A stretch of DNA of 64,000 nt from a virus. The notes under the pieces are model-generated. The model was not told where the DNA came from. It did no database searches and saw nothing but the letters and a program-made list of their open reading frames with translations. The DNA lies in the UHGV virus genome UHGV-0286546. The stretch is one strand, 5' to 3'. Below, piece after piece: positions 6,700-61,903 of the stretch (the stretch's first letter is position 1; every line of letters begins with the position of its first letter). The position numbers and the translations under genes were made by a program.

Positions 6700-6775
6700 G
6701 GAAGTATAGCTCAGCCGGTAGAGCAACGAGCTTTTAACTCGTGGGTCATGGGTTCGAATCCCTTTGCTTCCACCA
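6700..6775 (+). tRNA. tRNA-Lys (UUU)
   Basis: Acceptor GGAAGTA/TGCTTCC, anticodon stem ACGAG/CTCGT loop CTTTTAA, T-loop TTCGAAT, A+CCA. Confidence 0.8.
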
Positions 6776-6783
6776 ATTTTTAT

Positions 6784-6860
6784 GGCGATGTAGTTCAGCC
6801 GGTTAGAACGTATCCCTCATAAGGATAAGGTCACTTGTTCGAGTCAAGTCATCGCTACCA
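6784..6860 (+). tRNA. tRNA-Met/Ile2 (CAU), elongator type
   Basis: Acceptor GGCGATG/CATCGCT, anticodon stem TATCC/GGATA loop CTCATAA, T arm ACTTG-TTCGAGT-CAAGT, A+CCA. Confidence 0.8.
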
Positions 6861-6913
6861 TCTTTTTAAATTTTAAGTTCTAAACATAAAATGATTATTA
6901 CGGAGAAATTTTT

Positions 6914-7390: not shown

Positions 7391-7452
7391 ATAAAATTGT
7401 TTTACTTTTATTAAAAATAATATATATTTATTTTAAATAGCTTTGCATTAGA

Positions 7453-7529
7453 GGATTCTTAGCTCAATTGGATAGAGCAATAGCCTTCTAAGCTATGGGT
7501 TGCAAGTTCGAATCTTGCAGAATCCGCCA
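7453..7529 (+). tRNA. tRNA-Arg (UCU)
   Basis: Acceptor GGATTCT/AGAATCC, anticodon stem ATAGC/GCTAT loop CTTCTAA, T arm TGCAA-GTTCGAATC-TTGCA, G+CCA then T7 run. Confidence 0.85.
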
Positions 7530-7548
7530 TTTTTTTATTATTTTCTGT

Positions 7549-7580
7549 TTTACATTTTTTAATTATGGTGTATTTTATTA
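7549..7580 (+). promoter_or_regulatory. sigma70-like promoter GTTTTACA-N17-TATTTT
   Basis: -35 TTTACA at 7549; -10-like TATTTT. Confidence 0.35.
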
Positions 7581-7589
7581 ATATCTGTT

Positions 7590-7830
7590 ATGGCGGAAGT
7601 ATAGACGCTAGATGGAGTGTGGAGAGAGGAAGTGAATCCGGAATAGCTTACCTCGCAGATGAAAAGAATACGGCCGAAAGCGGTGAATAATCGCAATCGG
7701 AGAAACCGTAGAACGGAGGCTCAGACGGGATGCAAACTAACCAATTAAGTCACAATTCGCGAAGTGATGTCATCGAGCCCAAAACAAAGACCACACGTTC
7801 TAAAGGGTTGGTATTTTCTTAATAGTATAT
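7590..7830. ncRNA. candidate structured ncRNA (GC-rich ORF-free island)
   Basis: ~240 nt with GC clearly above genome background, no ORF, downstream of promoter-like element and tRNA-Arg; analogous position to T4 small stable RNAs. Confidence 0.3.
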
Positions 7831-7887
7831 CATGGCTTTAGATAACAGATATTAACAAAGTATATAGTGAAAGGAATGAATAAATAG

Positions 7888-8295
7888 ATGTTGGAAAAAA
7901 TAAAAGAAAAAATTAAAGATTGGTGGTTTTCTAGAGATAGTATTTTTAATTTTTATTTCTCAATATCTTCATCTGGTATTTTTATAAATTTTACTATATT
8001 AGATTACGGTATAGATTTAGATATCACTATTCCGTGTATTCTTCCTAGCTTCTATATTAAAACCTTTTATGAAAAAGAACAAGAAATCTTTACAAATAAA
8101 TTTTGGGGTGAACAGTTTACATTTGTTTCTGATTTGCGTACAGAATTTGGTACAGGTTGGTTTGTTAATCAAGATCATGCTGGTTTTAGTGCTCAAGCGT
8201 CAATTTTAGGTTTTAATTATAGTTATGAATTGAGAGATACAAGGCATTGGGATTACTTTAAAAATTGCTGGAAGAGCTGTTCAGAAGATAAATAA
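7888..8295 (+). CDS. hypothetical protein
   Basis: ORF with SD gaaaggaatg. Confidence 0.5.
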   Translation: MLEKIKEKIKDWWFSRDSIFNFYFSISSSGIFINFTILDYGIDLDITIPCILPSFYIKTFYEKEQEIFTNKFWGEQFTFVSDLRTEFGTGWFVNQDHAGFSAQASILGFNYSYELRDTRHWDYFKNCWKSCSEDK

Positions 8296-8350
8296 ATAAG
8301 ACATTCTAAAGTTCTAAGTATATATTTGGTATATTTAGGACTTTTTATTT

Positions 8351-9106
8351 ATGAGTAGATTCAGAACAATTGTAGAAAATATCATAAAAACTTTTACAGA
8401 AGACGCGTTCTCAGACAGAGATAGATATAAAGAGGCAATTGATGTATATCTTAATGTATTAGATAAAATGGAACCGTCTCTAAATACAGATAAAATTATT
8501 ACAGATAGCGCAGAATGTGTCAGTTTACAAGTAGATACACCTCATGGTCCTCTAATTGTTAGTGTTTCTCTAGATAAAGATGTACATAATGCCGGTGTAT
8601 ATTATCCAGAATACAACGCTATTGAACTTAACATACACGGTATAATGGATTTGAGTGATGAAACTATAAACATGACAGATCCGATTACCGGTGAAGAAAA
8701 TGTTACAGGTATAAATGCTAAATACTTATATAAAATTTTATCTTCTCGTGCCGTTCAAGATACATTTATTCACGAATATACCCATTTTATAGATGATAAA
8801 ACAAAGTACTCCATGAAAAAGCAAGCAGATACATATAAAAATATAGATTATTTCAATAAACCTTACGAAAGAAATGCGTTTTATATTGCTTGGTTAAATA
8901 AAATCGTTTCATATACCTATAAAAAATATGGTAAAATAATGAAAGAGTTGACACCAGATGAACGATTAAATTTTTTAAGAAATGCTTGGAAAGAAGACGA
9001 AGAATTTGTAGAATATTATAATAAACTTGAACCTGCTGCAAAGAAAAGATTTATGTCAAGATTATATAATTATTTTAGTACTGATTTCTGGTCGGATGCT
9101 GCATAA
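8351..9106 (+). CDS. leader-family protein 1 (MSRFRTIVEN...), putative zinc metallopeptidase (HEYTH)
   Basis: Conserved N-terminal leader; HExxH motif TFIHEYTHFID. Confidence 0.65.
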   Translation: MSRFRTIVENIIKTFTEDAFSDRDRYKEAIDVYLNVLDKMEPSLNTDKIITDSAECVSLQVDTPHGPLIVSVSLDKDVHNAGVYYPEYNAIELNIHGIMDLSDETINMTDPITGEENVTGINAKYLYKILSSRAVQDTFIHEYTHFIDDKTKYSMKKQADTYKNIDYFNKPYERNAFYIAWLNKIVSYTYKKYGKIMKELTPDERLNFLRNAWKEDEEFVEYYNKLEPAAKKRFMSRLYNYFSTDFWSDAA

Positions 9107-9123
9107 CAAAAGGTAGATTTAAA

Positions 9124-9708
9124 ATGAGTAAAATAAGAACAATTATTGAAAATATCCTTTATGAAGGTGATAAAAAAATATTTGATAAAGAATCTGGATA
9201 CAATAGCTCTAAAGATGAGTTATATATTTATGATTTACTTAAAAAGAAATGGCCAGATGTTAAAATGAGCTATACCAGAGATGATTTTATTAATCCAGAA
9301 ACTCATCGTCATTTTCAATTAGATTTTTACGTACCTTCTGAAAATATGGGAATACAGGTAAATAAACATTGGAAACACGGTAGAAGAGTATATGATCCAT
9401 CTGATCCAAATTGTCAAAAAGATGTTCGTTGGTTAAAAAATAAAGGTGGAGATTTTTATAACAAAGTTTTGCATACCTGGACCGAATTAGATCCTATTAA
9501 ACGAGAAGTTGCAAAGCAAATAGGTATGAAATACGTAGAAATCTTTAATTTAGACGAATTTAATACTTGGTACAATAATCCAGAATTAACATACGAAGAA
9601 TATAAACAGGCTCCAGATTCTTTACAATACGACAGTGATGAATATTTTGCTGCAAAAGCTAATAATCGTGATATTTATGGTAATGATTCCGATCCGTTAG
9701 GTGCATAA
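9124..9708 (+). CDS. leader-family protein 2 (MSKIRTIIEN...); possible Vsr/DUF559-like nuclease fold
   Basis: Leader; segment FQLDFYVPSENMGIQVN resembles DUF559 core. Confidence 0.55.
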   Translation: MSKIRTIIENILYEGDKKIFDKESGYNSSKDELYIYDLLKKKWPDVKMSYTRDDFINPETHRHFQLDFYVPSENMGIQVNKHWKHGRRVYDPSDPNCQKDVRWLKNKGGDFYNKVLHTWTELDPIKREVAKQIGMKYVEIFNLDEFNTWYNNPELTYEEYKQAPDSLQYDSDEYFAAKANNRDIYGNDSDPLGA

Positions 9709-9774
9709 TTACGGTTTTACTTTTATTTTAATATAAATTATTATATATAAAATTTAAAATAGATAGGTATAAGA

Positions 9775-10530
9775 ATGAGTAAGTTTAAAACCATCGTAGA
9801 AAATGCATTATATGAAGTTGGAGCATTGCCTTTTCCAAAAAATATTCAAGTATATGCTAAAAAAGAAAAAGTAAATTTATTTGAAATTAAATATTTACGA
9901 AAAGATGGTAAATTGGATGAACCAGGTGGAATTTGTTATGCTAAAACTGGAATTTGGAAAGATATCCGTGAAAATGAAAATGCTTTTATACGCACGCAAT
10001 TAGATGAAAAATTTAGACCAGATCAAGGCAATTTTAGTAAATATCGTGGTGGTATGATTGTATTTGCTCTGAGTGTCAATACTGTCATTGATAAATTGAA
10101 TTATAATCAATTAGTTGCAGAAATTAAAAAGATTTGGTATACCTTAATAAACAATACCTTTAAAAATAAAATGATTAAAGGTGTAGTTAATTCTATGAAA
10201 AATACTTATGCTAACATTGAAGATGCAGAGATCGGAGGTATTACAATAGGTAATAACTTTAAAGGCATGTATTTTGATGGTAATAAAGTATATAATGATA
10301 AATCAACGAGTTTAGAAATAAATGACATTTCTAGTGAGATGTTGTTATTACTAGCTATTGAAATTTGTAAAGCATTTCGTCAAGATAGCGTTTTAATCAA
10401 AGATTTCAATAAAAATAAATTCTTTTTGTGTGATTCTGAAGAAGTAGAAGGCGAAATTCCAGAAGAAAAAATAAAAAACGCTTCTAAAGACTTAGCAAAC
10501 TTAAAGAATGTAAATACAAAAACAAAATAA
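9775..10530 (+). CDS. leader-family protein 3 (MSKFKTIVEN...)
   Basis: Leader conserved at protein and nucleotide level. Confidence 0.6.
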   Translation: MSKFKTIVENALYEVGALPFPKNIQVYAKKEKVNLFEIKYLRKDGKLDEPGGICYAKTGIWKDIRENENAFIRTQLDEKFRPDQGNFSKYRGGMIVFALSVNTVIDKLNYNQLVAEIKKIWYTLINNTFKNKMIKGVVNSMKNTYANIEDAEIGGITIGNNFKGMYFDGNKVYNDKSTSLEINDISSEMLLLLAIEICKAFRQDSVLIKDFNKNKFFLCDSEEVEGEIPEEKIKNASKDLANLKNVNTKTK

Positions 10531-10556
10531 TGTATGATTTAGCAGAAAGTATAATT

Positions 10557-11102
10557 ATGAGTAGATTTAGAACAATTGTTGAAAATGCTATTGCCAAAGT
10601 AAATAAAAAACTTTTAAAAGAACGTTGTGAATCGCTTTTTATAGCACCAATGAGTCTACATAATGATGAGCGAGAAGTAGTAGAAGTACTTTATAATCCT
10701 TCGAAAGCAGAATTCAATAGAGCATTTAGAGAATGGGGTACTATACGAGGACTTGCTGACAATGAAGATGTAATTATTTGGGATGGATATAAAGCTGTTC
10801 ATGATTCAGTAAAAGAACAATTAGAAAAACAGTATGGTGCAACCTTTCCAACTAATTACGGGACATTATGCAGATTTGAAACAACACGCGAATATCCATT
10901 AATGCTCGAAGATGATACAAAACAGTATAGTCATGGTAAAGAATTAGATCCAGTAAAGCAAACCTTATTTAAAAATCCTAACTTTACACGATTATTTTCA
11001 GAAGAGGAAATACTAAATGCTGATTCTCATAATTTTGCTAATGGAGAATTCGGTGAGTTTCAAAATGATCCAGAAATATTAAAAAAGTTTGGATATGATT
11101 AA
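10557..11102 (+). CDS. leader-family protein 4 (MSRFRTIVEN...), NPSK/IRGLAD domain paralog of 6914..7390
   Basis: ATG 10557 after listed upstream extension; paralogy motifs. Confidence 0.6.
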   Translation: MSRFRTIVENAIAKVNKKLLKERCESLFIAPMSLHNDEREVVEVLYNPSKAEFNRAFREWGTIRGLADNEDVIIWDGYKAVHDSVKEQLEKQYGATFPTNYGTLCRFETTREYPLMLEDDTKQYSHGKELDPVKQTLFKNPNFTRLFSEEEILNADSHNFANGEFGEFQNDPEILKKFGYD

Positions 11103-11190
11103 AAATTGCTTTACAGATATAAAATTTTATGATATTGTATAAATATAAAATAAAAAAGAGAGTTCTATAAATTATGATTAATACGAATAT
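11101..11190 (+). promoter_or_regulatory. conserved promoter cassette TTGCTTTACA-N17-TATTGT plus leader (copy 2 of 2)
   Basis: ~80% identical to 5641-5730; followed by 21-codon ORF (11174-11239) and terminator. Confidence 0.45.
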
Positions 11191-11275
11191 TTTACATTGT
11201 TGGTGTCATCATTTACTTCACAGAGGTGTTGATGCTTAGTTATACGTGTTAATTCATAAAATTATTAGTTTCAAG

Positions 11276-11309
11276 CCTCTAGGATAATTACTTTCTAGAG
11301 GTTTTTTTA
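11276..11309 (+). terminator. rho-independent terminator
   Basis: cctctag-loop-ctagagg then T8. Confidence 0.6.
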
Positions 11310-11313
11310 TTAT

Positions 11314-11387
11314 GGACTGTTGGTAGAGTGGTTATACGTTAGTCTGCAAAACTAATTACACAAGTTCGAATCTTGTACAGTCCTCCA
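11314..11387 (+). tRNA. tRNA-Cys (GCA)
   Basis: Acceptor GGACTGT/ACAGTCC, anticodon stem TTAGT/ACTAA loop CTGCAAA, T arm ACAAG-TTCGAAT-CTTGT, T+CCA. Confidence 0.8.
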
Positions 11388-11430
11388 ATTTTACGCATAG
11401 AAGTATATATCAATAAAATGGTCTATTCTT

Positions 11431-11506
11431 GTGTGCGTAGCTTAATTGGTAAAGCGTCGGTTTGTGGTACCGAAGGATACGAGTTCGAATCTCGCTGCTC
11501 ACCCCA
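11431..11506 (+). tRNA. tRNA-His (GUG); no encoded G-1, one U-U mismatch in acceptor
   Basis: Anticodon stem TCGGT/ACCGA loop TTGTGGT, D arm GCTT-AATTGGTA-AAGC, discriminator C + CCA. Confidence 0.7.
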
Positions 11507-11512
11507 CTTTAT

Positions 11513-11586
11513 AGGGACTTAGTTTAATGGTAAAACACTAGTCTCCAAAACTAGATATAGGAGTTCGATTCTCTTAGTCCTTGCCA
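11513..11586 (+). tRNA. tRNA-Trp (CCA)
   Basis: Acceptor AGGGACT/AGTCCTT, D arm GTTT-AATGGTA-AAAC, anticodon stem CTAGT/ACTAG loop CTCCAAA, T-loop TTCGATT, G+CCA. Confidence 0.8.
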
Positions 11587-12050: not shown

Positions 12051-12842
12051 ATGGTTAAAAACTATTACGAAATATTAGAAGTACATAAATTTGCTTCAGA
12101 TACTGAAATTAAGCGTGCTTTTTACAAGTTAGCTAAAAAGTATCATCCTGACATTAACCCTAAAACAGCAAACTTATTTAAAGAAATTAATGAAGCTTAT
12201 CATGTTTTAATTGATCCTAAACTAAGACGTGAATATAATAACAGCTTAAATACAGAAGTTCCGTTCACTTTAAACGAAGATATTTTTAAATCCTCTGAAA
12301 ACGATTCATTAGTAGATATTCTTAATAATGTAACCAAACAAACAGAAGACCTGAATAAAGAATTAGAAGAACTTATAAACTCTTTTGATTACTTTGAAGA
12401 TGGACAATACTACTATAATCCAGAAAAAGAAAGTATCTTTAGAATTATAGATGAATTTAAAACATTTAGATTTGAAAACGCTGTTGCTGCCATATGGAAT
12501 AGAAATGCAATTAGTATCTTCGGCGCGGCATTTGTTTTCCTGCTGAGTTTTATTTGTATTTTGTTTACTAAACCATTTAAACTCTATAAACATCTTACTT
12601 ATAAAAAACGTAACTTTGCTTGGTTAAATCATATTTCCAGATTAACTAAAGAAAATAAATTGTTTTTTACATTGTGCTGGACTATTATCTTAAATATTTT
12701 TAGCGTAAGTAGGCTAATTTATAATATTTTATATTCTACTGTATGGATTTTCAGTAAGATTTTAAAATACTTCTTGATTCCAGCCGCTATTATATTTGCT
12801 GCCACATTTAGAGTTGCTTTCTATAATCCAACAAGAAGATAG
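12051..12842 (+). CDS. J-domain (DnaJ-like) protein with C-terminal hydrophobic segments
   Basis: YYEILEV...[15 protein letters not shown] (HPD motif); C-terminal half with 2-3 predicted TM helices. Confidence 0.8.
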
Positions 12843-30975: not shown

Positions 30976-32208
30976 ATGGTTAAGAATGTACAAGATAAAT
31001 TGCTGATGCCGGAATTCACGATTGATACAGTTGTTAATGATAGTGGTATCGAAATTCCTGGTATCAAAAGAATGTATGATATTGCATTGGCTATTGGTGA
31101 TTCATTGATGCAGTGGGGTGGTCCAGGATGTGGTAAGTCTCAGTCAGTACAGCAGTGGAATGCAGATAAAGTTGCTGAGTATGAAAAACGTATGGCTGAA
31201 GGTGAAAAAGTAAAACCTTGGAATCCGGTCGTTTGTGATGTTCGTTTGTCTATGAAAGAGCCAGTTGATATGGTTGGTGTTCCTATTCCGACTAAAGATG
31301 AAAAAGGTAACATGACAACTGTTTGGGCAACTCCTTCGATGTGGCCTAAGAATGATGGTGAATTCGCTGGTGGTGTTATTCACTTGGATGAAATGAATCA
31401 GGGTCAAGCTGCTATTCTGAATGCTGCCTTCCAGTTGATTCAAGACCGTGCTTTGGGAGAATACAAAGTACCTGAAGGTTATATCATTATTGGTTCATCT
31501 AACCCGTCTGCATATAACTCTACTGTTACTGAGTTTTCTGTACCATTGTCAAACAGATTTAGTCACTTCAATGTTAAACCTGACTTCGATTCTTGGTTGA
31601 ACTACAGAATGAATAACGGTGGTAACTTGGATGTTATGACCTTCTTAAAGACACAGGGTATGAATATGTTGTTTGATAAAGAAGGTATGGAAGCCAAAGT
31701 TGGTAGTCTTGCCGATGCTATGTATACAGATATTGTTATCACTCCTCGCTCTTGGGAAGTAATTGAAAAAGTATTAGCGCTTCCTGATGGTAATAAAGCA
31801 ACTGGTGGATTTACAATAGATGAAAAACAAAGATATGCAACCGGTCGTTTAGGTCTTGCTATTGCTTCCAGACTGTTTACTTGGTTGAAAGATAAAGCTA
31901 AATATCAAGACTGGAGAGAAATCCTTATCGATGGTAAAGACTTTAAAGATGAAAACAGTGAACAATTCTGGGCTGTTCAGATGGCATGTATGAATGCAAT
32001 CATTAACCAGAAAGATGATGCGAAATGTCGTGAATATTGCTTGAACTTCGTAAAGGCTACAGAAAAACTTAAGACTGCAGCATTCAAAGTTATCAATATT
32101 ACACAGTTGATTAGATGTAAACGTGTTGAAGGTAATCTCAAAATCTTCAATTCGATGAGAGATGCACCTAACTTGATTCGTTTGATTTCAACAATCACTC
32201 GCAGATAA
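30976..32208 (+). CDS. MoxR-like AAA+ ATPase (AAA_5 type)
   Basis: Walker A GGPGCGKS, Walker B VIHLDEMNQ, sensor region; TAACCCAACC motif + SD upstream. Confidence 0.8.
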   Translation: MVKNVQDKLLMPEFTIDTVVNDSGIEIPGIKRMYDIALAIGDSLMQWGGPGCGKSQSVQQWNADKVAEYEKRMAEGEKVKPWNPVVCDVRLSMKEPVDMVGVPIPTKDEKGNMTTVWATPSMWPKNDGEFAGGVIHLDEMNQGQAAILNAAFQLIQDRALGEYKVPEGYIIIGSSNPSAYNSTVTEFSVPLSNRFSHFNVKPDFDSWLNYRMNNGGNLDVMTFLKTQGMNMLFDKEGMEAKVGSLADAMYTDIVITPRSWEVIEKVLALPDGNKATGGFTIDEKQRYATGRLGLAIASRLFTWLKDKAKYQDWREILIDGKDFKDENSEQFWAVQMACMNAIINQKDDAKCREYCLNFVKATEKLKTAAFKVINITQLIRCKRVEGNLKIFNSMRDAPNLIRLISTITRR

Positions 32209-32740: not shown

Positions 32741-34117
32741 ATGACAGTTGATGTTAAAGAAATCTGGGAAGCTGCGATGGTTGAATTGGTCATTGAGTTT
32801 CCTATTTATGCACAACTTCTAACGAGAATAGGTACGACCTTTGTAAATGAACCTAATCGTAAGTTTGTAGCATGGACAGATGGTAGAACAATTTACGTTA
32901 ATGAGTCTATGATAAAAATGTTTAATGAAGATCCTATTGTTAAAGGTGATTCAGGAACACAGTATAACAGAGCCATTACAAAAAGAGAAATGATGTTCCT
33001 TCTGTGTCATGAGTTACTGCATCTTATTGGTTTAACTTACGATAGAGGTTCACAAAAAGGATTGTATCGTGGTGCAGTAAATGCTAACGATAGACACATG
33101 TGGGAATTATGGAATAAAGCCACTGACTATGAAATCAACAGCTTACTACATAATAATGAAAAGACTACAGACCGTGGCGATGTTGTACATAATGCTATCG
33201 GTAAAATGCCAGATTGGGTACTGTATGAAAGCGACTACCGTGACAAAACAGCAGAAGAAATCTTTGAAATCCTTAAGAAAGAGGATGAAAAGAATAATCA
33301 CGGCGGTGGTTCTGGTGGCTGTTCCGGTAAAGGTCAGTCAGCAGATGGAGGTCAAAGCTGTGGTAATAATGTAGATGGTCTTGATTTTAGTATTGATGAT
33401 CATATGCCAATACAGGATGATGCTACTAGAAACGAAGTACTTACTAAGATGTCAGAAGTATTCGGTTCAAGGACTAATGGTTTAGGTATGTCTTCAATCG
33501 ACAGAATGATTAATAACGTATATAAACCTCAACCCTTTAACTGGAGACGTGCACTTACTAGATATATTCGTGGCTGGATGAAAGATAACTATACTTGGAA
33601 CAGACCTTCTCGTGCTGGTATAGCGAATAACCTTATCCTTCCATCATCTGGTCGTACTCCTAAAATGCATATCGGAGTTGCAGTGGATACTTCTGGTTCA
33701 ATTCACGATACTGAGTTACATACTATGATGGATCACTTGTTTACCATTCTATCACAGTTTAAAGACTTTACTGTAGATGTTTGGTGTTGTGGTTCAAAAG
33801 TATATCCCGAAACGTTCCGAACATATACTGCATCGAATAAACGCGAACTACATAATTTCAAGTTTGCTTCTGATGGTGGTAATGATATGCGAGAGAATTT
33901 CAAGTTTATCAAAGAGAAATATAAACAGGATAAATTGGATGTCTTCATCTGTATGTCTGACTTCTATGATCCATTAGACGGTGATACAGAAACAGTAAGT
34001 CCTTGTCCTTGTATTTGGATGGTTCTTGATCACCCTTCATTCACACCACCGTCATTAATTAAAGCGGAAACCTATCCGTTTGTTGTTGAAGATAGTAAGA
34101 ACAATGCTGACTACTAA
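32741..34117 (+). CDS. vWA-domain protein with N-terminal DUF2201-like putative metallopeptidase domain (HExxH)
   Basis: LLCHELLHL motif; Gly-rich linker; MIDAS DTSGS at C-terminal vWA. Confidence 0.75.
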   Translation: MTVDVKEIWEAAMVELVIEFPIYAQLLTRIGTTFVNEPNRKFVAWTDGRTIYVNESMIKMFNEDPIVKGDSGTQYNRAITKREMMFLLCHELLHLIGLTYDRGSQKGLYRGAVNANDRHMWELWNKATDYEINSLLHNNEKTTDRGDVVHNAIGKMPDWVLYESDYRDKTAEEIFEILKKEDEKNNHGGGSGGCSGKGQSADGGQSCGNNVDGLDFSIDDHMPIQDDATRNEVLTKMSEVFGSRTNGLGMSSIDRMINNVYKPQPFNWRRALTRYIRGWMKDNYTWNRPSRAGIANNLILPSSGRTPKMHIGVAVDTSGSIHDTELHTMMDHLFTILSQFKDFTVDVWCCGSKVYPETFRTYTASNKRELHNFKFASDGGNDMRENFKFIKEKYKQDKLDVFICMSDFYDPLDGDTETVSPCPCIWMVLDHPSFTPPSLIKAETYPFVVEDSKNNADY

Positions 34118-42322: not shown

Positions 42323-43300
42323 TTATCCTTTATAATACTGAATTCCATACTTCTTTATAAATAACCCACATCTATTAACATCTGTATTAACTTCTGGTCC
42401 TACAAATATATAATCAGGAGCTTTAACATGTTCTTTAATAAGCCCTACCCATTCTATAAAGTTATAATACATATTTTCTGGTGTACCTTTCCATCTTTCT
42501 GTATTAGGACCAAAGGGAGGACATACAAATACTGTCTTATCTGTTTCTACTACTTGTGCTAATACATCTCTCTGTACCCATCCATAATATTTACAAAAGA
42601 TTGGATTAATGTCATAAGCTTCTATTTCTGCATCTATATTGTTTTTCTTATAATACTTTCTTGCTCCTTCTATTATACCACCAAATCCTGCCATAGGACA
42701 ATATATGCCTTTAGAAATATCTTTACCACTTTCTTCTAATATCCTTTCAAAAGCAGAAGGCATAAGAGCAGTTACCTTTGGAGCAATCTTAGCGATAGTA
42801 AACCTATGTAATACTTCTTGTAATAAACCTATATCATTATCCTTAAATACTTTTTCAACCCTATTACAAAACTCTTCATACTTATTACCTTTTATACTAT
42901 CATTAATTATCTTAAATAAGTTGTTGATAGCTTTTATTAAATATTCCGGTTTATTCCACGCTTCTTTAGGTGATAACTTACCAGATACATAACAGTCCCA
43001 AATAGGATGATCTGCTGGCCATTTTTTAGTACCCGGAAAAGCACTTCTTAAACACTTATTTAGTATATATTCATCAGTTAATCCAAATAAACTATTAACC
43101 TTTTCTAATTTTATTCCTTTTGTTTTACCGGTATGACTATCTCTCATCTTTTGCTTTGTTAATTCAGATACTACATACTTACCTTGTTGTTTCCTATAAG
43201 CACTGACACACCGACATGAACAAAACTGTCTACCTTTTCTAGCAGGATGAAATAACTTACCACAATACTTACATTCTATATCTTCTTTCTTATTCATCAT
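42323..43300 (-). CDS. Zn-finger + NUMOD3 DNA-binding protein with C-terminal Rossmann/methyltransferase-like motifs
   Basis: N-terminal CKYCG...CSCRC; NUMOD3-like SELTKQKMRDSHTGK; C-terminal PMAGFGG (motif I-like), EIEAYDINP, VFVCPPFGP (motif IV-like); SD aaaggaga. Confidence 0.6.
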   Translation of the reverse strand: MMNKKEDIECKYCGKLFHPARKGRQFCSCRCVSAYRKQQGKYVVSELTKQKMRDSHTGKTKGIKLEKVNSLFGLTDEYILNKCLRSAFPGTKKWPADHPIWDCYVSGKLSPKEAWNKPEYLIKAINNLFKIINDSIKGNKYEEFCNRVEKVFKDNDIGLLQEVLHRFTIAKIAPKVTALMPSAFERILEESGKDISKGIYCPMAGFGGIIEGARKYYKKNNIDAEIEAYDINPIFCKYYGWVQRDVLAQVVETDKTVFVCPPFGPNTERWKGTPENMYYNFIEWVGLIKEHVKAPDYIFVGPEVNTDVNRCGLFIKKYGIQYYKG

Positions 43301-43985
43301 TGTCTCCTTTCATGTCAGATCCATCCCAAGGTCTACTTGCATTTATATATGAATCTAATGGTCTAAGATTTTCTAATGCCCAACACTTTTTAAAATCTTC
43401 ACAATATATGTCTGTAATATTAAAAGTATTTACTGGTCTAATATGATCTATTTGCCAAGTTTCTCTTAGTCCTTTAGCTGTTAAACCAAGATTATCCCAA
43501 CTCATCCAATCTTCAAACTGACTCTCTAAATGCTTTTCTAAATCTTGTATACTATATCCTAATATATTACGTATACTATCATCTTTTTTATTTATAAGCG
43601 ATCTTCGTACTGCCGTCGATATAATGCATCTTAATTTATATCCAATATCACTAGCATACCTTTCATTTTTCCATTTACGATTATACTCGGCTTTTATCTT
43701 TCTTTGCTCTTCAGTCCTATTCTTATGCCATTTTGAAGCTTCTTTCTTATGTGTTTGGTAATATTCCTTTTTATAATCAGGGTTATTCGTTCTAAACCTT
43801 TCATTTTCTTTTTTAATTTTTTCAGGATACTTCATACAATACCTTTTACGTGCAGCTAATACCTTTTCCCTATTTGCTCTCTTCCATCTACGATTCCTTT
43901 CATTCTTTATTAATCTAGCTCTTTCTAAAGGATCTTCTACACTAATAAACATCTCTTCTATACCTTTATATAAATCATCAGTCAT
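43290..43985 (-). CDS. HNH endonuclease
   Basis: WQIDHIRPV...ALENLRPLDSYIN motif; basic N-terminal half. Confidence 0.7.
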   Translation of the reverse strand: MTDDLYKGIEEMFISVEDPLERARLIKNERNRRWKRANREKVLAARKRYCMKYPEKIKKENERFRTNNPDYKKEYYQTHKKEASKWHKNRTEEQRKIKAEYNRKWKNERYASDIGYKLRCIISTAVRRSLINKKDDSIRNILGYSIQDLEKHLESQFEDWMSWDNLGLTAKGLRETWQIDHIRPVNTFNITDIYCEDFKKCWALENLRPLDSYINASRPWDGSDMKGDNDE

Positions 43986-44123
43986 TACAGCATCAATCCT
44001 TTAATCACTTCGTTAGTATATTAACATTATCTAGAATTACAACTTTGTCAGTATATTAACAAAAGAAATTTCAAAAGTAAATACCTAACTTTCCAAAAGT
44101 ATTAAAAAGATAAATATAAAAGA

Positions 44124-44152
44124 AATCCCCCAGATTTTACTCCAGGGGATTC
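44124..44152 (-). terminator. hairpin terminator downstream of capsid gene
   Basis: aatcccc-loop-ggggatt with T-rich run on minus strand. Confidence 0.5.
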
Positions 44153-44187
44153 TTGATTCTACAATAATATCTTGCTAAATCAACAAC

Positions 44188-45771
44188 TTAGGCGTGAGCT
44201 TGGTTGAAGTTAGCAATAGCACCACGTACCAAGTACTCAGGCTTATTGATGAACAAATCATAGAAAGACATAGCGCCTTTGTGATTCTTCAAATTAGGAG
44301 CTTGGAAAGTAGGTGTGAAATAGAGCGGGATCCACTCAGCTAAAACAATTGCCGAATCACCTAACTGGAATCCTTTGAAACCGAAGACAACCTGATCAAC
44401 CGGTAATGTCTTAGTATAAGGAACAGCGATAACAGCAATAGTACCGTCACGCAATGTACCAGCTAAGTAAGGTCCAATCGGTTTCTTAGCTTCAGGAGCT
44501 GCTTTGAAACCTTCGATTTGTTCTACGATTGTTAAACCTTGACGAGCAGAAACAATCATGAATTCAACTGTACCACGACCAGCAACTTCTTGGATAATAC
44601 CACGAGCACTAGAAATAGTAGTTGTATAAGCAGAATATCTCTGTTGTAAGGTTAAGTTAGCACCGTTTGCAGCACAATCAAATGTCAAATCAGCGTTCGG
44701 AGTAGCAGCAGCATATACACTGTGGATCAATGACAAATCACGTTCCCAACGAATAGTACCAGCAATTTGGTTAGCAATCAATTCATCAGTGTCAATTGCT
44801 AAGTGAGCGTTCATTACCAAACCAGCTGCAACACTGTAAGAACTCATTAACGGGTGCTGCTTAGCTAAAATAGGCTGATTAGGAATATCGAACTGAATCT
44901 TACGAATCAAATCAACATCTGTTTCAACATCAACAGCAGCTTCGAAACTCAGCATAGCATTCTCAGCAATAGCATCAGCATACATAGTAGCATCCAATTT
45001 CAATGTAGCTACACCAGTCTGAGCATTAACTGTACCAGAAACACCACGACCAATTACATTGTATGCACCACTGTTAACACCATCCAACTGCGCAGAACCA
45101 TTACCATAGTCACGTGCAATCTCTTTACCTGCTAAACGAACGATGAACGAACCAGCACGTACTTTAACTGTAGCATCAGAAGGCAATGCAGCAGACGGAT
45201 TAGCAGTTACATCAGCAGTAGCCTGAACATCTGTATACCCAATGAACTCAGAAGAATACGTACCATCTGTCGGATTCTCAAATACAATGTCACCAGCTTC
45301 AACACCAGCAGCGTCTTGAGAATAACGTGTTTTGATGATGAAGATTTGGCCAGACTGACGATCTAAAGCTTGAATATCAGCAATGTAGTTTGCTACCATT
45401 TGCGGATAAAATACATTAACGATATCAACGACTTTAGGAGTCAAGCTTGCAACACCAGGGCTGAGCAAAGAAACAGCAGAAGTAGAAGCGTTACCGCCAA
45501 AATCTTCGTGCAGGATATTGCGACCTGTGTAAGGAGTATCTGGCTGTTGAGCGATGTATTCAGCAGTATTTTCTAAGAGCTGAACCATAGTAGCGGCTTG
45601 GTATTTAGCTTCTTTAGAGTCAGATTCCAGAGCTTTTACGAGAGCCGGGCAGCGTTTGCCGAGAGTAGATTCACTGAGAACTTCTGCAGCGTGAGCGATA
45701 CCTTTATTGATTCTTTCGCTACGGGCTTTAGCAACCAGTGACTTATTTTCAACTTTGGTTAAGATAGACAT
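44188..45771 (-). CDS. major capsid protein, T4 gp23 family
   Basis: 527 aa; segment SGQIFIIKTRYSQDAAGVEAG and C-terminal GFKGFQ resemble T4 gp23 (from memory); Ala/Gly/Thr-rich, GC-richer codon usage; N-terminal LTKVEN putative protease site; SD aggaaa. Confidence 0.7.
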   Translation of the reverse strand: MSILTKVENKSLVAKARSERINKGIAHAAEVLSESTLGKRCPALVKALESDSKEAKYQAATMVQLLENTAEYIAQQPDTPYTGRNILHEDFGGNASTSAVSLLSPGVASLTPKVVDIVNVFYPQMVANYIADIQALDRQSGQIFIIKTRYSQDAAGVEAGDIVFENPTDGTYSSEFIGYTDVQATADVTANPSAALPSDATVKVRAGSFIVRLAGKEIARDYGNGSAQLDGVNSGAYNVIGRGVSGTVNAQTGVATLKLDATMYADAIAENAMLSFEAAVDVETDVDLIRKIQFDIPNQPILAKQHPLMSSYSVAAGLVMNAHLAIDTDELIANQIAGTIRWERDLSLIHSVYAAATPNADLTFDCAANGANLTLQQRYSAYTTTISSARGIIQEVAGRGTVEFMIVSARQGLTIVEQIEGFKAAPEAKKPIGPYLAGTLRDGTIAVIAVPYTKTLPVDQVVFGFKGFQLGDSAIVLAEWIPLYFTPTFQAPNLKNHKGAMSFYDLFINKPEYLVRGAIANFNQAHA

Positions 45772-56464: not shown

Positions 56465-56538
56465 TATAAATATAAAGTTAATTGACCCCAGATATTATTA
56501 TTTAGTATTTGGGGTATTTTATGCAAAGGAATCAAGAA

Positions 56539-57147
56539 ATGAAAAAATTACCCAGCGAATATTTATTTGTTGCAAAAGATGGTAAAACATATTATAAAGC
56601 ATATCAAAAACATAAAAAAGAAATTGAACTTAATGGATATATATTAGCTTCGATTCCGGTTGTATTTGATAAAGAGGCTACTACAGAAGTATTGTTTAAA
56701 ATCATAGAAGATAATCCGCACCTAAAAGATTCTATGTTTTATTTTGATGAGTTTAATAAAGAATTTAATCAAGAAAGCGAAGATACTTATAAAGGTAAAT
56801 TAAACTTTTATTGGTGGGGCATTGAAGTTGAAGATAAAGTTATTGATACAATGATTCCTAAAATGGAAGTAGATATGATTGACGAAACAGGCGAGCGTTA
56901 TAGTATTGAATTTTTATCTGTAAATAAATTGAAAAATCTTAAAATCAACGTTGATCCTACTTTCAATATTTATGACAAAGAAAATAAACCGGTATATACT
57001 CTTGTTAGTTATCCGACGCTGTTCCATATTTTGTATGGATTTTTCTGGGAAGTAAGTTTTTTCGGTAATCCAGAAGATAGAGAAAATAAATCAAATGAAT
57101 TACAAGAAGCGTTAAAAGGTATTAAGAAGGAATTCGACATTGAATAA
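56539..57147 (+). CDS. hypothetical protein
   Basis: ATG after aaggaatcaagaa; listed TTG start 56509 lies inside hairpin. Confidence 0.5.
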   Translation: MKKLPSEYLFVAKDGKTYYKAYQKHKKEIELNGYILASIPVVFDKEATTEVLFKIIEDNPHLKDSMFYFDEFNKEFNQESEDTYKGKLNFYWWGIEVEDKVIDTMIPKMEVDMIDETGERYSIEFLSVNKLKNLKINVDPTFNIYDKENKPVYTLVSYPTLFHILYGFFWEVSFFGNPEDRENKSNELQEALKGIKKEFDIE

Positions 57148-57526
57148 AAATAATGTATTATTAGTTGAAGATAATTTAAGTGTTGCAGCAATTTTTAAAA
57201 TATTAGCAAAAAGAATGGGTATTAACTTAGTCCATCAAACTTCGGCAGAGCGTACTTTAGAATTAGAAGATACTCCACATGCACCTATTTCTTTGGCAAA
57301 TCTTATTATATTGGATTTTGATTTAGTAGGTGAAAATACTCTACCTATTTTACAATATATTAAAGATAATAATATAAATACTCCTGTTATTATGAATAGT
57401 GCAAACCCTAGTATAAAGGATACTATTGATAAAAACGGTTTTACAGATATAATAAAAGAATATAAAGATAAAAATTGTTCATTACAAGAAACACAGGATA
57501 TAATTTTAAAATACCTCGAGGCATAA
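57140..57526 (+). CDS. stand-alone CheY-like receiver (REC) domain protein
   Basis: VLLVEDN acidic pocket, LIILDFDL phospho-acceptor Asp region, PVIMNS, ~128 aa. Confidence 0.55.
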   Translation: MNKNNVLLVEDNLSVAAIFKILAKRMGINLVHQTSAERTLELEDTPHAPISLANLIILDFDLVGENTLPILQYIKDNNINTPVIMNSANPSIKDTIDKNGFTDIIKEYKDKNCSLQETQDIILKYLEA

Positions 57527-59856: not shown

Positions 59857-59890
59857 GGACTCGGTTTTTAATGAATCGGGTCCTTTTTGT
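59857..59890 (+). terminator. rho-independent terminator
   Basis: ggactcg-loop-cgggtcc + T5GT4. Confidence 0.6.
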
Positions 59891-59954: not shown

Positions 59955-61184
59955 ATGACAAAAATTACAGTACTTGATAATGGTTTTAAGATTATTACCG
60001 AAAAAAGAAATTTCAACAATGTTTCTATGGGTGTTTTTGTAAAGGTCGGGCTTTTTAATGAAACAGATGAAATGAATGGTATATCTCACTTTCTTGAACA
60101 CATGGCATTTAAAGGTACCAAAACCAAAACAGCTCAAGAATTAGTAGATAGTATTGAAAAACTCGGTGGTAATTGTAATGCATTCACCAGTACTACACAT
60201 ACAGCATATTTAGTTAACCTTCTTCCTGAGCATTGGAAAGCAGGTGTAGATTTCCTTTCTGATATTATTAAAAACTCTACTTTCCCAAAAGAAGAAATCG
60301 AAAGAGAACGAAATGTAATCCTTCAAGAAATTGCTATGTATGAAGATAATATCAGTAGTGTTAGTTGGAATGAAATCATTAGTAATGCCTTTAAAGGACA
60401 AGCTCTAGGTAGAAAAGTAATCGGTACAGAAGAAAACGTAAAACGATTTACTAGAAATGATTTAATTAAATATATGACAGATGGATATGTTGCCAATAAA
60501 ATGACTTTTTCTATTTGTGGTAATGTTAAACACGAAGAAGTTGTAAAATACGTAAAAGCTGCTTTTTCTAATTTAAATACAGAATTTAAGTTACAGGAAT
60601 TTTCTTCTAAATACAAATCACCTAAAAAGAGAAAAGAAATTGAAACCAAGTTTGATCAGGCACATGTTTGTTTGACTGTTCCTGGACGTAAAATGTTCGA
60701 AAGAAGTAATTATGTTCATTCCATTTTTAATAATATTCTTGATGGTGGTATGTCAACACGGTTGTTTCAAGAAGTACGTGAACGTAATGGATTAGGATAT
60801 GCAACTTCTACTATTGCAGAAAGTGAACCTAATACCGGTATTTATGGCGTTTGGGCAGCAGTTGATAAAGAAGACATTGAAAAAACAGTAGAAGTCTTAG
60901 GAGCCACATTTAAATCAATGATGCAAAATATTGGTGACGATGAGTTTGAAAAAGCCAAGAATATCACTTTATATAATCTTACAAGTAAAGAAGATGATTG
61001 TTATTCAGTAATGGATGCTAATGCAGTTTGTGGTATATTTGATAAGAAACGTAAATCATTAAAGACTAAAAAAGCAATCATTAATAAAATTACAAAGCAA
61101 GATGTTATTGAATATGCTAAATCTTTGTGTGATAAAAAAATGGATATTGTAATTGTTAAACCTAAAGTCGAAGAAAGGATTTAA
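59955..61184 (+). CDS. M16-family (pitrilysin/insulinase-like) zinc peptidase
   Basis: Inverted zincin motif HFLEHMAFKG (HxxEH) near N-terminus; 409 aa; second-domain R/Y motifs. Confidence 0.75.
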   Translation: MTKITVLDNGFKIITEKRNFNNVSMGVFVKVGLFNETDEMNGISHFLEHMAFKGTKTKTAQELVDSIEKLGGNCNAFTSTTHTAYLVNLLPEHWKAGVDFLSDIIKNSTFPKEEIERERNVILQEIAMYEDNISSVSWNEIISNAFKGQALGRKVIGTEENVKRFTRNDLIKYMTDGYVANKMTFSICGNVKHEEVVKYVKAAFSNLNTEFKLQEFSSKYKSPKKRKEIETKFDQAHVCLTVPGRKMFERSNYVHSIFNNILDGGMSTRLFQEVRERNGLGYATSTIAESEPNTGIYGVWAAVDKEDIEKTVEVLGATFKSMMQNIGDDEFEKAKNITLYNLTSKEDDCYSVMDANAVCGIFDKKRKSLKTKKAIINKITKQDVIEYAKSLCDKKMDIVIVKPKVEERI

Positions 61185-61186
61185 AA

Positions 61187-61903
61187 ATGAAAAAGGAAAA
61201 AACTTTGGAACCTAATGAATATTTTCATGGATTAAAAGATAAGATTCAAAAGACTGATTTGGCTACAATTGAAGAAGATATTAAGATGGTAACAAATCTC
61301 ATCGAAGAAGCTAAAGAAATTGGTCAAAATGCTCTTGCTAAAAACTATGAAGATCTAGCAATTACTTATTTTAAAGAAAGAGTCATTTTTAAGCATGGAT
61401 ATTCTAAATATGTTAAAAAAGATGATATTGAAAAATATATTAGAAATGTTAAAGATCAAGTAGTTAAAATTTGTGAATTGGAATTGTTTCCGAGGACTTT
61501 GCCTAAAGAAGTATCGGATAAGATTAAAGAGTTGAAAAAACTTAAAATCTTTGATGATATGTGGGTTGTTTTTATTGACTATGAACAAAAAGAAAACCTT
61601 ACAAAAGAAGAAAAGGAAATGAGATCAAAGAATAGAGACCCTATCCTTTTTGCTACTTTTGAAGAATGTATGGATCGCTTTTATTTCATTGCAGATTGGG
61701 ATGACGATATTTGTGATTTAAGATTTGAAGATATGGTTACAGAATTAAAGAAACTTGATAAAAAATACGCTGTTAAAGAGATCATTAAAGACGGCGAAAA
61801 ATATATGCAAGAATTAATTAAAGAGCGTAATCATAAACCGGTGAAACTTTCAGATAAGATTAAAGCAACATGGAAAAGTCTGTTAGATATTTGGAAGGAA
61901 TAA
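61187..61903 (+). CDS. hypothetical protein
   Basis: ORF 3 nt after peptidase gene. Confidence 0.55.
   Translation: MKKEKTLEPNEYFHGLKDKIQKTDLATIEEDIKMVTNLIEEAKEIGQNALAKNYEDLAITYFKERVIFKHGYSKYVKKDDIEKYIRNVKDQVVKICELELFPRTLPKEVSDKIKELKKLKIFDDMWVVFIDYEQKENLTKEEKEMRSKNRDPILFATFEECMDRFYFIADWDDDICDLRFEDMVTELKKLDKKYAVKEIIKDGEKYMQELIKERNHKPVKLSDKIKATWKSLLDIWKE

What the first reader, a model, noticed from the sequence alone, without database searches (positions are those of the whole stretch)
57140..57526. Orphan CheY-like receiver domain encoded by the phage
128-aa protein with the N-terminal hydrophobic strand plus acidic pair (VLLVEDN), the hhhhD phospho-acceptor context (LIILDFDL), and the hhhh(S/T) motif (PVIMNS). 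A stand-alone REC domain could act as a phosphate sink or decoy for a host two-component pathway. No kinase or output domain is nearby.
Basis: partly seen in the sequence, partly recalled or inferred. Interest (0 to 1): 0.55.

Follow-up and report, generated by a model that had tools for sequence, protein, structure and literature searches.

The report
Phage-encoded stand-alone receiver (CheY-like) protein
A giant bacteriophage carries a small, well-conserved gene for a classic bacterial 'receiver' signalling domain with an intact phosphorylation site but no kinase of its own in view, so it most likely taps into or drains a host two-component signalling pathway; it is real and mildly unusual, but it is a new member of a known protein kind.

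Summary
The ORF at 57140..57526 (+, TTG start, 128 aa) is a real gene that encodes a classical stand-alone receiver (REC) domain.

- **Identity.** The window copy scores just under Pfam's PF00072 cut-off (28.8 against 30.2 bits). Its orthologs pass, the family profile hits solved receivers at E 1e-12 to 1e-14, and an AlphaFold model (pLDDT 92.5) is a (βα)5 fold with TM about 0.8 to LuxO, PhoP and ArcA receivers.
- **Active site.** All five catalytic residues are present and conserved across about 25–30 homologs of 30–50% identity: E10-D11, D59, S87 and K111 (not "~105"). The Y108 switch residue and a small T+1 residue are also kept. pN/pS is 0.056.
- **Setting.** The gene lies in a T4-like-capsid jumbo-phage lineage (related contigs 110–263 kb).
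- **Orphan status.** A Pfam scan of 120 window ORFs finds no kinase, Hpt, phosphatase or output domain.
- **Not cREC, not a pseudo-receiver.** It does not match the phage cREC family and keeps every catalytic residue.
- **New finding.** Wherever REC occurs it sits 0–0.5 kb downstream of a conserved ORFan of about 205 aa (ORF212). The two genes overlap in three lineages. ORF212 has no conserved His or Asp.
- **Function.** The phosphate-sink or decoy idea is plausible, given hydrophilic D+2/T+2 residues and a variable output face, but it is untested.

Verdict: new member of a known kind, moderate interest.

The parts
57140..57526 (+). Stand-alone receiver (REC) gene, 128 aa, TTG start. Topology: beta1 5-9, alpha1 13-26, beta2 29-33, alpha2 36-41, beta3 55-58, alpha3 68-76, beta4 83-86, alpha4 92-98, beta5 105-109, alpha5 115-126.
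57127..57131 (+). AAGGA Shine-Dalgarno-like sequence 8 nt upstream of the TTG start.
   Evidence: read directly from the sequence
57167..57172 (+). Codons for E10-D11, the acidic metal-binding pair (the 'DD' position, CheY D12/D13).
   Evidence: E/D in 25 of 25 and D in 25 of 25 family members
57314..57322 (+). Codons for D59-F60-D61. D59 is the predicted phospho-acceptor (CheY D57). D61 is the D+2 position, acidic in 20 of 25 family members.
57398..57406 (+). Codons for S87-A88-N89: the conserved Ser/Thr (CheY T87), a small T+1 residue and a hydrophilic T+2 residue.
   Evidence: S/T 25 of 25; A/G 23 of 25; N 18 of 25
57461..57475 (+). Codons for Y108-K109-D110-K111-N112. Y108 is the K-3 aromatic switch residue (CheY Y106). 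K111 is the conserved Lys (CheY K109). K+1 is Asn rather than the usual Pro.
56521..57147 (+). ORF212, a conserved ORFan family of about 200-218 aa. The longest ORF begins at TTG 56509; orthologs suggest ATG 56521 or 56539. Its stop overlaps the REC start by 8 nt. It is immediately upstream of REC in every lineage that has REC. No conserved His or Asp.
   Evidence: no Pfam, PHROG, NCBIfam, PADLOC or PDB match
56485..56515 (+). Terminator-like hairpin just upstream of ORF212. It may mark the 5' boundary of the transcription unit that contains REC. Weak evidence.
   Evidence: 2 sites found against 1.4 expected in shuffles, so not significant on its own
59857..59883 (+). Terminator-like hairpin followed by a T-run after the NUMOD1-like gene. 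It may mark the 3' boundary of the unit. Weak evidence.

Best explanation
The gene encodes a genuine, phosphorylation-competent single-domain response regulator: a classical receiver of the CheY/Spo0F type, Pfam PF00072. A clade of T4-like-capsid jumbo phages makes it from a block of small accessory genes. E10 and D11 bind Mg2+, D59 accepts a phosphoryl group, and S87 and K111 coordinate it. Y108 provides the usual Y-T conformational coupling. No phage kinase or Hpt protein is detectable, so the phosphodonor is most likely a host histidine kinase or Hpt protein, or acetyl phosphate. The commonest outcome for such a protein is to compete with the host's own response regulator, draining or diverting phosphoryl flux as a sink or decoy and so silencing a host two-component pathway during infection. 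Shown here: gene reality, fold, a conserved active site, phage origin, and the absence of known partner domains in 64 kb. Inferred: that it is phosphorylated at all, that the donor is host-derived, and that it acts as a sink rather than as an adaptor.
For: Identity. PF00072 is matched by all 25 family members, best E 2.5e-14. Orthologs score above the gathering threshold. The family profile matches PDB receivers at E 1e-12 to 3e-14. The AF2 model has pLDDT 92.5 and a (beta-alpha)5 topology. Foldseek gives TM 0.75-0.80 and rmsd about 2.6 A to LuxO, PhoP, ArcA-BeF3, CtrA and Spo0F receivers.

Catalytic competence. E10/D11/D59/S87/K111 align with CheY D12/D13/D57/T87/K109 and are kept in 24-25 of 25 homologs at only 22-41% identity. 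T+1 is Ala or Gly in 23 of 25, and K-3 is aromatic in 17 of 25. By the definition in PMC12632262, keeping all five residues makes it a true receiver and not a pseudo-receiver.

Selection. pN/pS is 0.056.

Phage origin. A Gp23-type capsid gene, 12 tRNAs and homing-endonuclease-like genes lie in the window. Related contigs are 110-263 kb.

Orphan status. No HisKA, HATPase_c, Hpt, CheA, CheZ or output domain occurs among the 120 window ORFs, and none is flagged in the flanks of related loci.

Leaning towards a sink. The D+2/T+2 pair is Asp(Glu)/Asn, both hydrophilic, which is predicted to speed dephosphorylation, whereas the common bacterial pairs are Met/Arg and Met/Lys. The usual output face alpha4-beta5-alpha5 and the kinase-docking helix alpha1 are the most variable parts of the family, while the active-site loops are the most conserved. 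A stand-alone receiver that buffers phosphate is documented in the Detocs defence system as DtcB.
Against: No experiment and no phosphodonor has been identified. The host is unknown; the only hint is that a 91%-identical copy lies on a phage-like contig binned into a Succinivibrionaceae MAG. Only 64 kb of a roughly 235-kb genome was scanned, so a phage kinase elsewhere is not excluded. The family lacks the usual Pro at D+4 and mostly lacks Pro at K+1. The beta3-alpha3 loop carries extra negative charge, a trend reported for pseudo-receivers. The strict linkage to ORF212 suggests a dedicated phage partner, which fits an adaptor or regulator role better than a pure sink. Helix alpha3 is unusually conserved for unknown reasons.
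Confidence: 0.5

Rival explanations
1. ORF212 and REC form a phage-internal two-gene module. The receiver, phosphorylated by a host donor or by acetyl phosphate, binds and switches ORF212 or another phage or host target. It would then act as a phospho-dependent adaptor like CheY, DivK or CpdR, not as a passive sink. This would let the phage read the host's signalling or metabolic state.
For: REC lies 0-0.5 kb downstream of an ORF212 ortholog in every lineage that has REC: the window group, L002, L003, L004/L013, L007/L008, L011 and L012. The neighbouring small genes turn over between lineages. Stop and start overlap in the window group (ATTGAATAA) and in L011/L012 (TAATG), which suggests translational coupling. 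The Y108-S87 switch pair is conserved.
Against: In L002, L003, L004 and L007 one or two unrelated ORFs sit between the two genes. One lineage (L009/L010) has ORF212 but no REC within 6 kb. The canonical output face of REC is poorly conserved. ORF212 has no recognisable domain, so no function can be assigned to it.
Confidence: 0.25
2. It is an anti-defence decoy, a special case of the sink. The phage receiver soaks up phosphoryl groups from a defensive two-component system such as Detocs, mimicking its buffer protein DtcB, so that the toxic effector is never activated.
For: Detocs uses a kinase (DtcA), a stand-alone receiver buffer (DtcB) and a receiver-effector (DtcC). Mutating the DtcB acceptor Asp makes the system toxic (bioRxiv 10.1101/2023.01.24.525353). 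The phage protein has the same architecture, a lone catalytically intact receiver, and sits among accessory genes. From memory, and not verified here, the published version reports phage DtcB homologs that inhibit Detocs.
Against: No specific similarity to DtcB could be tested. PADLOC 2.0.0 holds no DtcB-type model, since even a CheY control finds none. The host and its defence repertoire are unknown. NCBIfam gives only generic receiver similarity.
Confidence: 0.1
3. It is a cREC-type enzyme: a divergent receiver fold that Iyer et al. predict cleaves 2'-3' or 1''-2'' cyclic phosphates in RNA repair or ADP-ribose signalling. On this reading it is not a signalling receiver.
For: cREC domains occur mostly in phages, in up to 18% of jumbo phages, and are never found with histidine kinases (PMC7824862 and PMC9503650). 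This protein is in a jumbo phage and has no kinase. Two of 25 family members give weak PF20274 hits.
Against: The window protein does not hit PF20274 even at E<=1. The one strong PF20274 hit is the outlier P0021, and an ordinary two-REC bacterial protein also cross-hits that model. Foldseek matches to annotated cREC proteins are much weaker (E 2e-3 and 3e-2, TM 0.58-0.67) than to classical receivers. The window has no Nudix, Macro, NADAR, sirtuin, 2H, KptA or RNA-ligase gene. cREC is described as having a metal-independent two-Asp site, whereas this family keeps the full metal-binding set of DD, T and K.
Confidence: 0.05
4. It is a phosphorylation-independent receiver-fold scaffold, functionally a pseudo-receiver. 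It would act through constitutive binding or dimerisation.
For: Pro is missing at D+4 and mostly at K+1, and the beta3-alpha3 loop carries acidic residues. These features are enriched in pseudo-receivers. The window copy falls just under Pfam's cut-off.
Against: All five catalytic residues are invariant or nearly so across homologs that share only about 30% identity. That is hard to explain without catalysis. By the Bourret-lab definition it is not a pseudo-receiver.
Confidence: 0.08

Closest known systems
Single-domain response regulators of the classical receiver family (Pfam PF00072): CheY, Spo0F, DivK
   Same: About 120-130 aa with a (beta-alpha)5 fold. It has the acidic pair, the acceptor Asp, Ser/Thr and Lys, a small T+1 residue and an aromatic K-3 switch residue. 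There is no output domain.
   Different: It is encoded by a jumbo phage with no cognate kinase in view. Identity to any solved receiver is only 16-26%, and it belongs to no named NCBIfam subfamily. D+2 is acidic, T+2 is Asn, Pro is missing at D+4 and usually at K+1, and a subclade carries an 'ELEDTxxxPIS' insert between alpha2 and beta3.
Phosphate-sink or buffer receivers: DtcB of the Detocs defence system; CheY1-type sinks in chemotaxis (own knowledge)
   Same: A lone receiver whose only known job is to accept phosphoryl groups and protect or silence a pathway. The architecture is identical.
   Different: No sequence-specific link to DtcB could be tested. Here the gene is on the phage side, and no kinase or effector operon surrounds it.
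cREC (PF20274), the phage cyclic-phosphate-processing receiver-like domain of Iyer et al. 2021/2022
   Same: A receiver-related fold that is phage-borne, common in jumbo phages and never found with a histidine kinase.
   Different: The window protein gives no PF20274 hit. Structural matches to cREC are weaker. The genomic context has no NAD+/ADP-ribose or RNA-repair genes. The full metal-dependent active site is retained.
Phage response regulators already in databases: PHROG 731, and BFVD entries such as 'Response regulator [Myoviridae sp. ctrnx29]' and 'CheY-like receiver [uncultured Caudovirales phage]'
   Same: They are phage-encoded receiver domains. PHROG 731 matches at E 7.5e-8, and the BFVD models match at TM 0.70-0.74.
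   Different: PHROG 731 is a 227-position profile, and only its N-terminal half is matched. Sequence identity is at most 20%. No GenBank phage has a detectable homolog by tblastn. None of the papers found characterises such a phage protein.

Membership tests
Classical receiver domain (PF00072 / CheY-like) | (beta-alpha)5 doubly wound fold with a five-stranded parallel sheet | tested here: met
   AF2 model with pLDDT 92.5 shows beta1-alpha1 through beta5-alpha5. Foldseek TM is 0.75-0.80 to more than 50 receiver structures.
Classical receiver domain (PF00072 / CheY-like) | Acidic pair after beta1 (DD) for Mg2+ binding | tested here: met
   E10-D11. The family has E/D in 25 of 25 and D in 25 of 25.
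Classical receiver domain (PF00072 / CheY-like) | Phospho-acceptor Asp at the end of beta3 | tested here: met
   D59 aligns with CheY D57, Spo0F D54 and the LuxO and NtrC1 acceptors. It is invariant.
Classical receiver domain (PF00072 / CheY-like) | Ser/Thr at the end of beta4 and Lys after beta5 | tested here: met
   S87 (S/T in 25 of 25) and K111 (24 of 25; the exception is the misaligned outlier P0021).
Classical receiver domain (PF00072 / CheY-like) | Pfam gathering score for PF00072 (30.2 bits) | tested here: inconclusive
   The window copy scores 28.8 bits, E 1.5e-6, just below the cut-off. Orthologs P0046, P0002, P0003, L004 and L007 score 30.7-42.7 bits, above it. All 25 members match at E<=0.1.
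Classical receiver domain (PF00072 / CheY-like) | Actual Asp phosphorylation by a kinase or a small-molecule donor | not testable with these tools
   This needs biochemistry: acetyl phosphate or phosphoramidate, Phos-tag, 32P.
Two-component system (paired kinase and regulator) | Cognate histidine kinase or Hpt protein encoded nearby | tested here: not met
   No HisKA, HATPase_c, Hpt or CheA family occurs among the 120 ORFs of the 64-kb window at E<=1e-3, and none is recorded in the flanks of L002, L003, L006, L007 or L009. The upstream partner ORF212 has no conserved His. The rest of the genome was not seen.
Pseudo-receiver (definition of PMC12632262) | [quoted passage not shown] | tested here: not met
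   All five residues are present and conserved.
cREC (PF20274) | Match to the cREC_REC profile | tested here: not met
   The window protein gives no hit at E<=1. Two of 25 family members hit, and only the outlier P0021 exceeds the cut-off.
cREC (PF20274) | Linkage or fusion to NAD+/ADP-ribose or RNA-repair genes (Nudix, sirtuin, 2H, KptA, tRNA ligase, Macro) | tested here: not met
   None of these families is in the window. The only NAD-related gene in related loci is a replicative NAD-dependent DNA ligase 3-9 kb downstream.
Detocs DtcB-like buffer or phage anti-Detocs decoy | Specific homology to DtcB | not testable with these tools
   PADLOC 2.0.0 returned no DtcB-type model, even for a CheY control. 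No DtcB sequence was available.

The most novel reading that the evidence does not exclude
ORF212 and REC together are a previously unrecognised, phage-specific two-gene signalling module. One version: the receiver's phosphorylation state controls a novel-fold effector, ORF212. The other: ORF212 is a non-canonical partner of the receiver, such as a phosphatase, a stabiliser or a His-independent phosphodonor. Either way jumbo phages would have a self-contained way to sense or rewire host phosphosignalling.
Probability: 0.15. Interest if true: 0.7.

Novelty: new member of a known kind. Interest (0 to 1): 0.4.

Why it matters
Two-component signalling is the main sensory system of bacteria. Phage interference with it is documented only in scattered cases, such as PIT4 of a Pseudomonas phage, which turned up by title and abstract. 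A catalytically intact receiver with no kinase, conserved across a clade of 110-263-kb phages, is a clean and testable candidate for such interference, whether as a sink, a decoy or a phospho-sensing adaptor. It also comes with a conserved unknown neighbour, ORF212, that could be its partner. If the sink or decoy role were shown, it would add a simple and portable anti-signalling strategy, possibly an anti-defence one, to the phage repertoire. If not, it remains an ordinary divergent REC domain in an unusual genome.

Tried and rejected
- **Known phage relatives.** megablast of 5 kb and tblastn of the protein against 50,697 GenBank phages found nothing. Single-protein scans of IMG/VR with the window protein, P0002 and P0005 also found nothing. 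The 25-sequence alignment was too diverse for the search for related loci; the smaller alignment A5 worked.
- **Single-sequence AF2.** pLDDT was 59, so the model was unusable. It was replaced by the 10-sequence run.
- **Named response-regulator subfamily.** NCBIfam gave only generic receiver-domain hits, 13-31 bits against cut-offs of 160-800.
- **Defence or anti-defence family.** PADLOC gave nothing for REC or its neighbours. A CheY control showed the library lacks DtcB-type models.
- **ORF212 as a hidden kinase, Hpt protein or phosphatase.** No Pfam, PHROG, NCBIfam or PDB similarity was found, even with a 19-sequence profile. It has no conserved His or Asp.
- **ORF212-REC fusion by frameshift.** Rejected, because other lineages have whole genes inserted between the two.
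- **Promoter scan.** Uninformative in this AT-rich DNA: 57 sites found against 52.5 expected.
- **HAD-phosphatase resemblance of the 'DFD' motif.** Only marginal single-member Pfam hits (E 0.02-0.08), and the order of the catalytic residues follows REC, not HAD. Rejected.
- **Literature.** No paper in the held library characterises a phage single-domain response regulator. My recollection that phage DtcB homologs inhibit Detocs could not be confirmed there.
Full report
**Observation.**
An AAGGA Shine-Dalgarno lies 8 nt upstream (57127-57131). The start overlaps the stop of the preceding 212-aa ORF by 8 nt. The three quoted motifs are present: VLLVEDN (6-12), LIILDFDL (55-62) and PVIMNS (82-87). 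The gene is real. A 95%-identical metagenomic contig (L001) differs in the coding region by 9 synonymous and 2 non-synonymous changes, pN/pS 0.056. Orthologs occur in the same gene order in many diverged contigs (below).

**Is it a receiver domain?**
Taken alone, the window protein is borderline. Pfam PF00072 gives E 1.5e-6 and 28.8 bits against a gathering score of 30.2. PHROG 731 gives E 7.5e-8. The best PDB sequence hit is the LuxO receiver at E 2e-4. The family evidence removes the doubt.
- An exhaustive HMMER search of 1.84 billion representatives found 44 proteins at E<=1e-3, best identity 41%. Most are stand-alone proteins of about 120 aa.
- All 25 aligned members match PF00072, best E 2.5e-14, and orthologs exceed the gathering score at 30.7-42.7 bits.
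- The family profile hits solved receivers (CtrA, LuxO, PhoP, NtrC1, CheY, Spo0F) at E 1e-9 to 3e-14.
- A single-sequence AlphaFold run was poor, pLDDT 59. With a 10-sequence alignment the model reached pLDDT 92.5 and pTM 0.88 with a textbook (beta-alpha)5 topology.
- Foldseek places that model among receiver structures at TM 0.75-0.80 and rmsd about 2.6 A.

**Active site.**
Alignment with E. coli CheY and B. subtilis Spo0F maps the residues as follows:

| Window residue | CheY residue | Role |
|---|---|---|
| E10 / D11 | D12 / D13 | metal-binding pair |
| D59 | D57 | phospho-acceptor |
| S87 | T87 | conserved Ser/Thr |
| Y108 | Y106 | K-3 aromatic switch |
| K111 | K109 | conserved Lys |

Across 25 homologs that share only 22-41% identity, these positions are E/D 25/25, D 25/25, D 25/25, S/T 25/25 and K 24/25. 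T+1 is Ala or Gly in 23/25, and K-3 is aromatic in 17/25. Under the definition in PMC12632262, a domain that keeps all five catalytic residues is a true receiver, not a pseudo-receiver.

The family departs from the bacterial norm in several ways:
- D+2 is Asp or Glu in 20/25 members.
- T+2 is Asn in 18/25.
- There is no Pro at D+4, and Pro at K+1 occurs in only 5/25.
- A subclade, including the window copy, has an 'ELEDTxxxPIS' segment between alpha2 and beta3.

Hydrophilic D+2/T+2 residues are predicted to accelerate dephosphorylation, whereas the common bacterial pairs Met/Arg and Met/Lys give long-lived phosphorylation (PMC8510515).

**Genomic setting.**
The window is phage DNA.
- It has a T4 Gp23-type major capsid gene at 44188..45771 on the minus strand. 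The nearest GenBank relatives are Pseudomonas phage QdP_Psa3 and Xanthomonas phage phiXF1, at only 34-39% identity.
- It carries 12 tRNA genes, NUMOD1/I-TevI-like and T5orf172 genes, an M16 peptidase, and more than 100 small ORFs of unknown function.
- GC content is 26-38%.
- Close and distant relatives of the locus lie on contigs of 235, 241, 263, 125 and 110 kb, so this is a jumbo-phage clade.
- One 91%-identical copy lies on an 11.7-kb contig binned into a Succinivibrionaceae MAG. That contig is phage-like throughout, so this is only a weak host hint.

**Orphan status.**
I called 120 ORFs of at least 60 aa across the whole window and scanned each against Pfam. No HisKA, HATPase_c, Hpt, CheA/CheW, CheZ/CheX, Rap or output-domain family appears, and PF00072 hits only this gene. 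A family HMM finds exactly one REC per locus. Precomputed Pfam labels in the flanks of five related loci show no kinase either. The limitation is that about 170 kb of the genome was not available.

REC always lies just downstream of an ortholog of the 212-aa ORF (56509/56521..57147). This holds in every lineage that has REC: the window group (window, L001, L005, L006), L002, L003, L004/L013, L007/L008, L011 and L012.
- In the window group the two genes overlap (ATTGAATAA), and in L011/L012 they overlap as TAATG.
- In L002, L003, L004 and L007, one or two unrelated small genes are inserted between them.
- The genes downstream of REC turn over freely between lineages.
- One lineage (L009/L010) has ORF212 but no REC within 6 kb.

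ORF212 defines an ORFan family of 21 sequences, 198-218 aa. It has no Pfam, PHROG, NCBIfam, PADLOC or PDB similarity, even with a 19-sequence profile. It has strongly conserved motifs, for example PTL-x4-YG-x-FWE-x2-F-x-G-x-P-x2-R. It has no His or Asp conserved in at least 90% of members, so it cannot be a conventional His phosphodonor or Asp acceptor. Its role is unknown, and it is the best candidate for a phage-encoded partner.

**Rivals tested.**
1. *cREC.* Iyer et al. described a divergent receiver-like domain. It occurs in up to 18% of jumbo phages, is never found with kinases, is linked to Nudix, sirtuin, 2H and RNA-ligase genes, and is predicted to cleave cyclic phosphates (PMC7824862, PMC9503650). 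Here the window protein does not hit PF20274. Only the outlier P0021 does so convincingly, and an ordinary bacterial receiver protein cross-hits the same model. Annotated cREC models match far worse than classical receivers, TM 0.58-0.67. No NAD/ADP-ribose or RNA-repair gene is in the window. The metal-binding DD pair plus T and K are retained. cREC is disfavoured.
2. *Pseudo-receiver.* Contradicted by the invariant catalytic quintet.
3. *Detocs-type decoy.* The Detocs defence system contains DtcB, a lone receiver proposed to buffer stray phosphoryl groups (bioRxiv 10.1101/2023.01.24.525353). A phage copy of such a protein would be an obvious counter-defence. I recall the published version reporting this but could not verify it in the held library. 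PADLOC has no DtcB-type model to test against. This remains a plausible special case of the sink model.

**Most likely mechanism.**
- Shown: the fold, a conserved catalytic site, purifying selection, phage origin, the absence of known partners in 64 kb, and the linkage to ORF212.
- Inferred: the protein is phosphorylated on D59 in a Mg2+-dependent way by a host kinase, a host Hpt protein or acetyl phosphate. It then alters host signalling.

Conservation mapping shows the active-site loops, beta1, beta3 and helix alpha3 as the most constrained parts. The kinase-docking helix alpha1 and the canonical output face alpha4-beta5-alpha5 are the most variable. That pattern, together with the hydrophilic D+2/T+2 pair and the open T+1 position, fits a fast-turnover phosphate sink or competitor that tracks different host kinases. 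It fits a regulator with one conserved output partner less well. The ORF212 linkage pulls the other way. My estimates are:
- about 0.95 that it is a classical receiver;
- about 0.8 that it is phosphorylatable;
- about 0.5 for the combined 'host-fed competitor or sink' statement;
- about 0.25 for a phospho-dependent module with ORF212.

**Novelty and interest.**
Receiver domains are among the best-known protein modules, and phage-encoded examples are already in databases (PHROG 731, BFVD entries). The kind is therefore known. This particular family is rare: 44 hits in 1.84 billion representatives and none in GenBank phages. It is divergent, restricted as far as seen to one jumbo-phage clade, and uncharacterised. 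The papers found by four searches contain no functional study of a phage single-domain response regulator. I rate it a new member of a known kind with moderate interest (0.4). The upside lies in the unexplained ORF212-REC pairing.

Noticed in passing
window 8351-9106, 9124-9708, 9775-10530, 10530-11102 (weaker: 331-954): Four consecutive + strand genes share an N-terminal leader 'MS(R/K)(F/I)(R/K)TI(V/I)EN', but their bodies are otherwise unrelated. The leader resembles a T4-type capsid-targeting sequence with an (I/L)xE prohead-protease site, so these may be packaged or injected internal proteins.
   Followed up: partly
window 56509-57147, with orthologs in L002-L013: ORF212 is a conserved ORFan family of 21 sequences (198-218 aa) with the motif PTL-x4-YG-x-FWE-x2-F-x-G-x-P-x2-R. 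It has no detectable homology to anything and always lies directly upstream of REC.
   Followed up: yes
window 59955-61184: A phage-encoded M16 (insulinase-type) zinc peptidase with both Peptidase_M16 domains and an HFLEH motif. It is conserved at 48-66% identity in related jumbo-phage contigs and has no PHROG family.
   Followed up: partly
window 2563-11586: A cluster of 12 tRNA genes interspersed with small ORFs: Ser, Ile x2, Gln, Tyr, Phe, Lys, Met, Arg, Cys, His and Trp.
   Followed up: no
window 3041-4531; 30976-32208; 32741-34117: A DUF2828/DUF7788 (TROVE/vWA-like) protein. Elsewhere, a MoxR-like ATPase (phrog_1297) lies next to a DUF2201 metallopeptidase-VWA protein, a module of unclear role in phages.
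   Followed up: no
window 12051-12842: A DnaJ (J-domain) protein, E 1.6e-21, with a hydrophobic C-terminal half that looks membrane-spanning. It may be a phage co-chaperone.
   Followed up: no
window 42323-45771 (- strand): The Gp23-type major capsid gene and two adjacent genes, one with a NinG-like N-terminus, are on the minus strand, embedded in an otherwise almost entirely plus-strand region. GC skew flips locally.
   Followed up: no
window 6914-7390 and 10530-11102: These are paralogous genes that share a C-terminal 'NPNFT(K/R)LFS(K/E)EEILNA(Q/D)SH' region.
   Followed up: no
window 61187-61903: This ORF matches phrog_10081, annotated 'transposase', at E 5e-33. It is nevertheless conserved at 75% identity in syntenic position in L002, which argues against a mobile element.
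   Followed up: no
L005 (JBJFGR010000081.1): An 11.7-kb contig deposited as part of a Succinivibrionaceae MAG is phage sequence across the 8.5 kb examined, at 71-97% aa identity to window genes. It is either a binning artefact or a hint at the host.
   Followed up: partly
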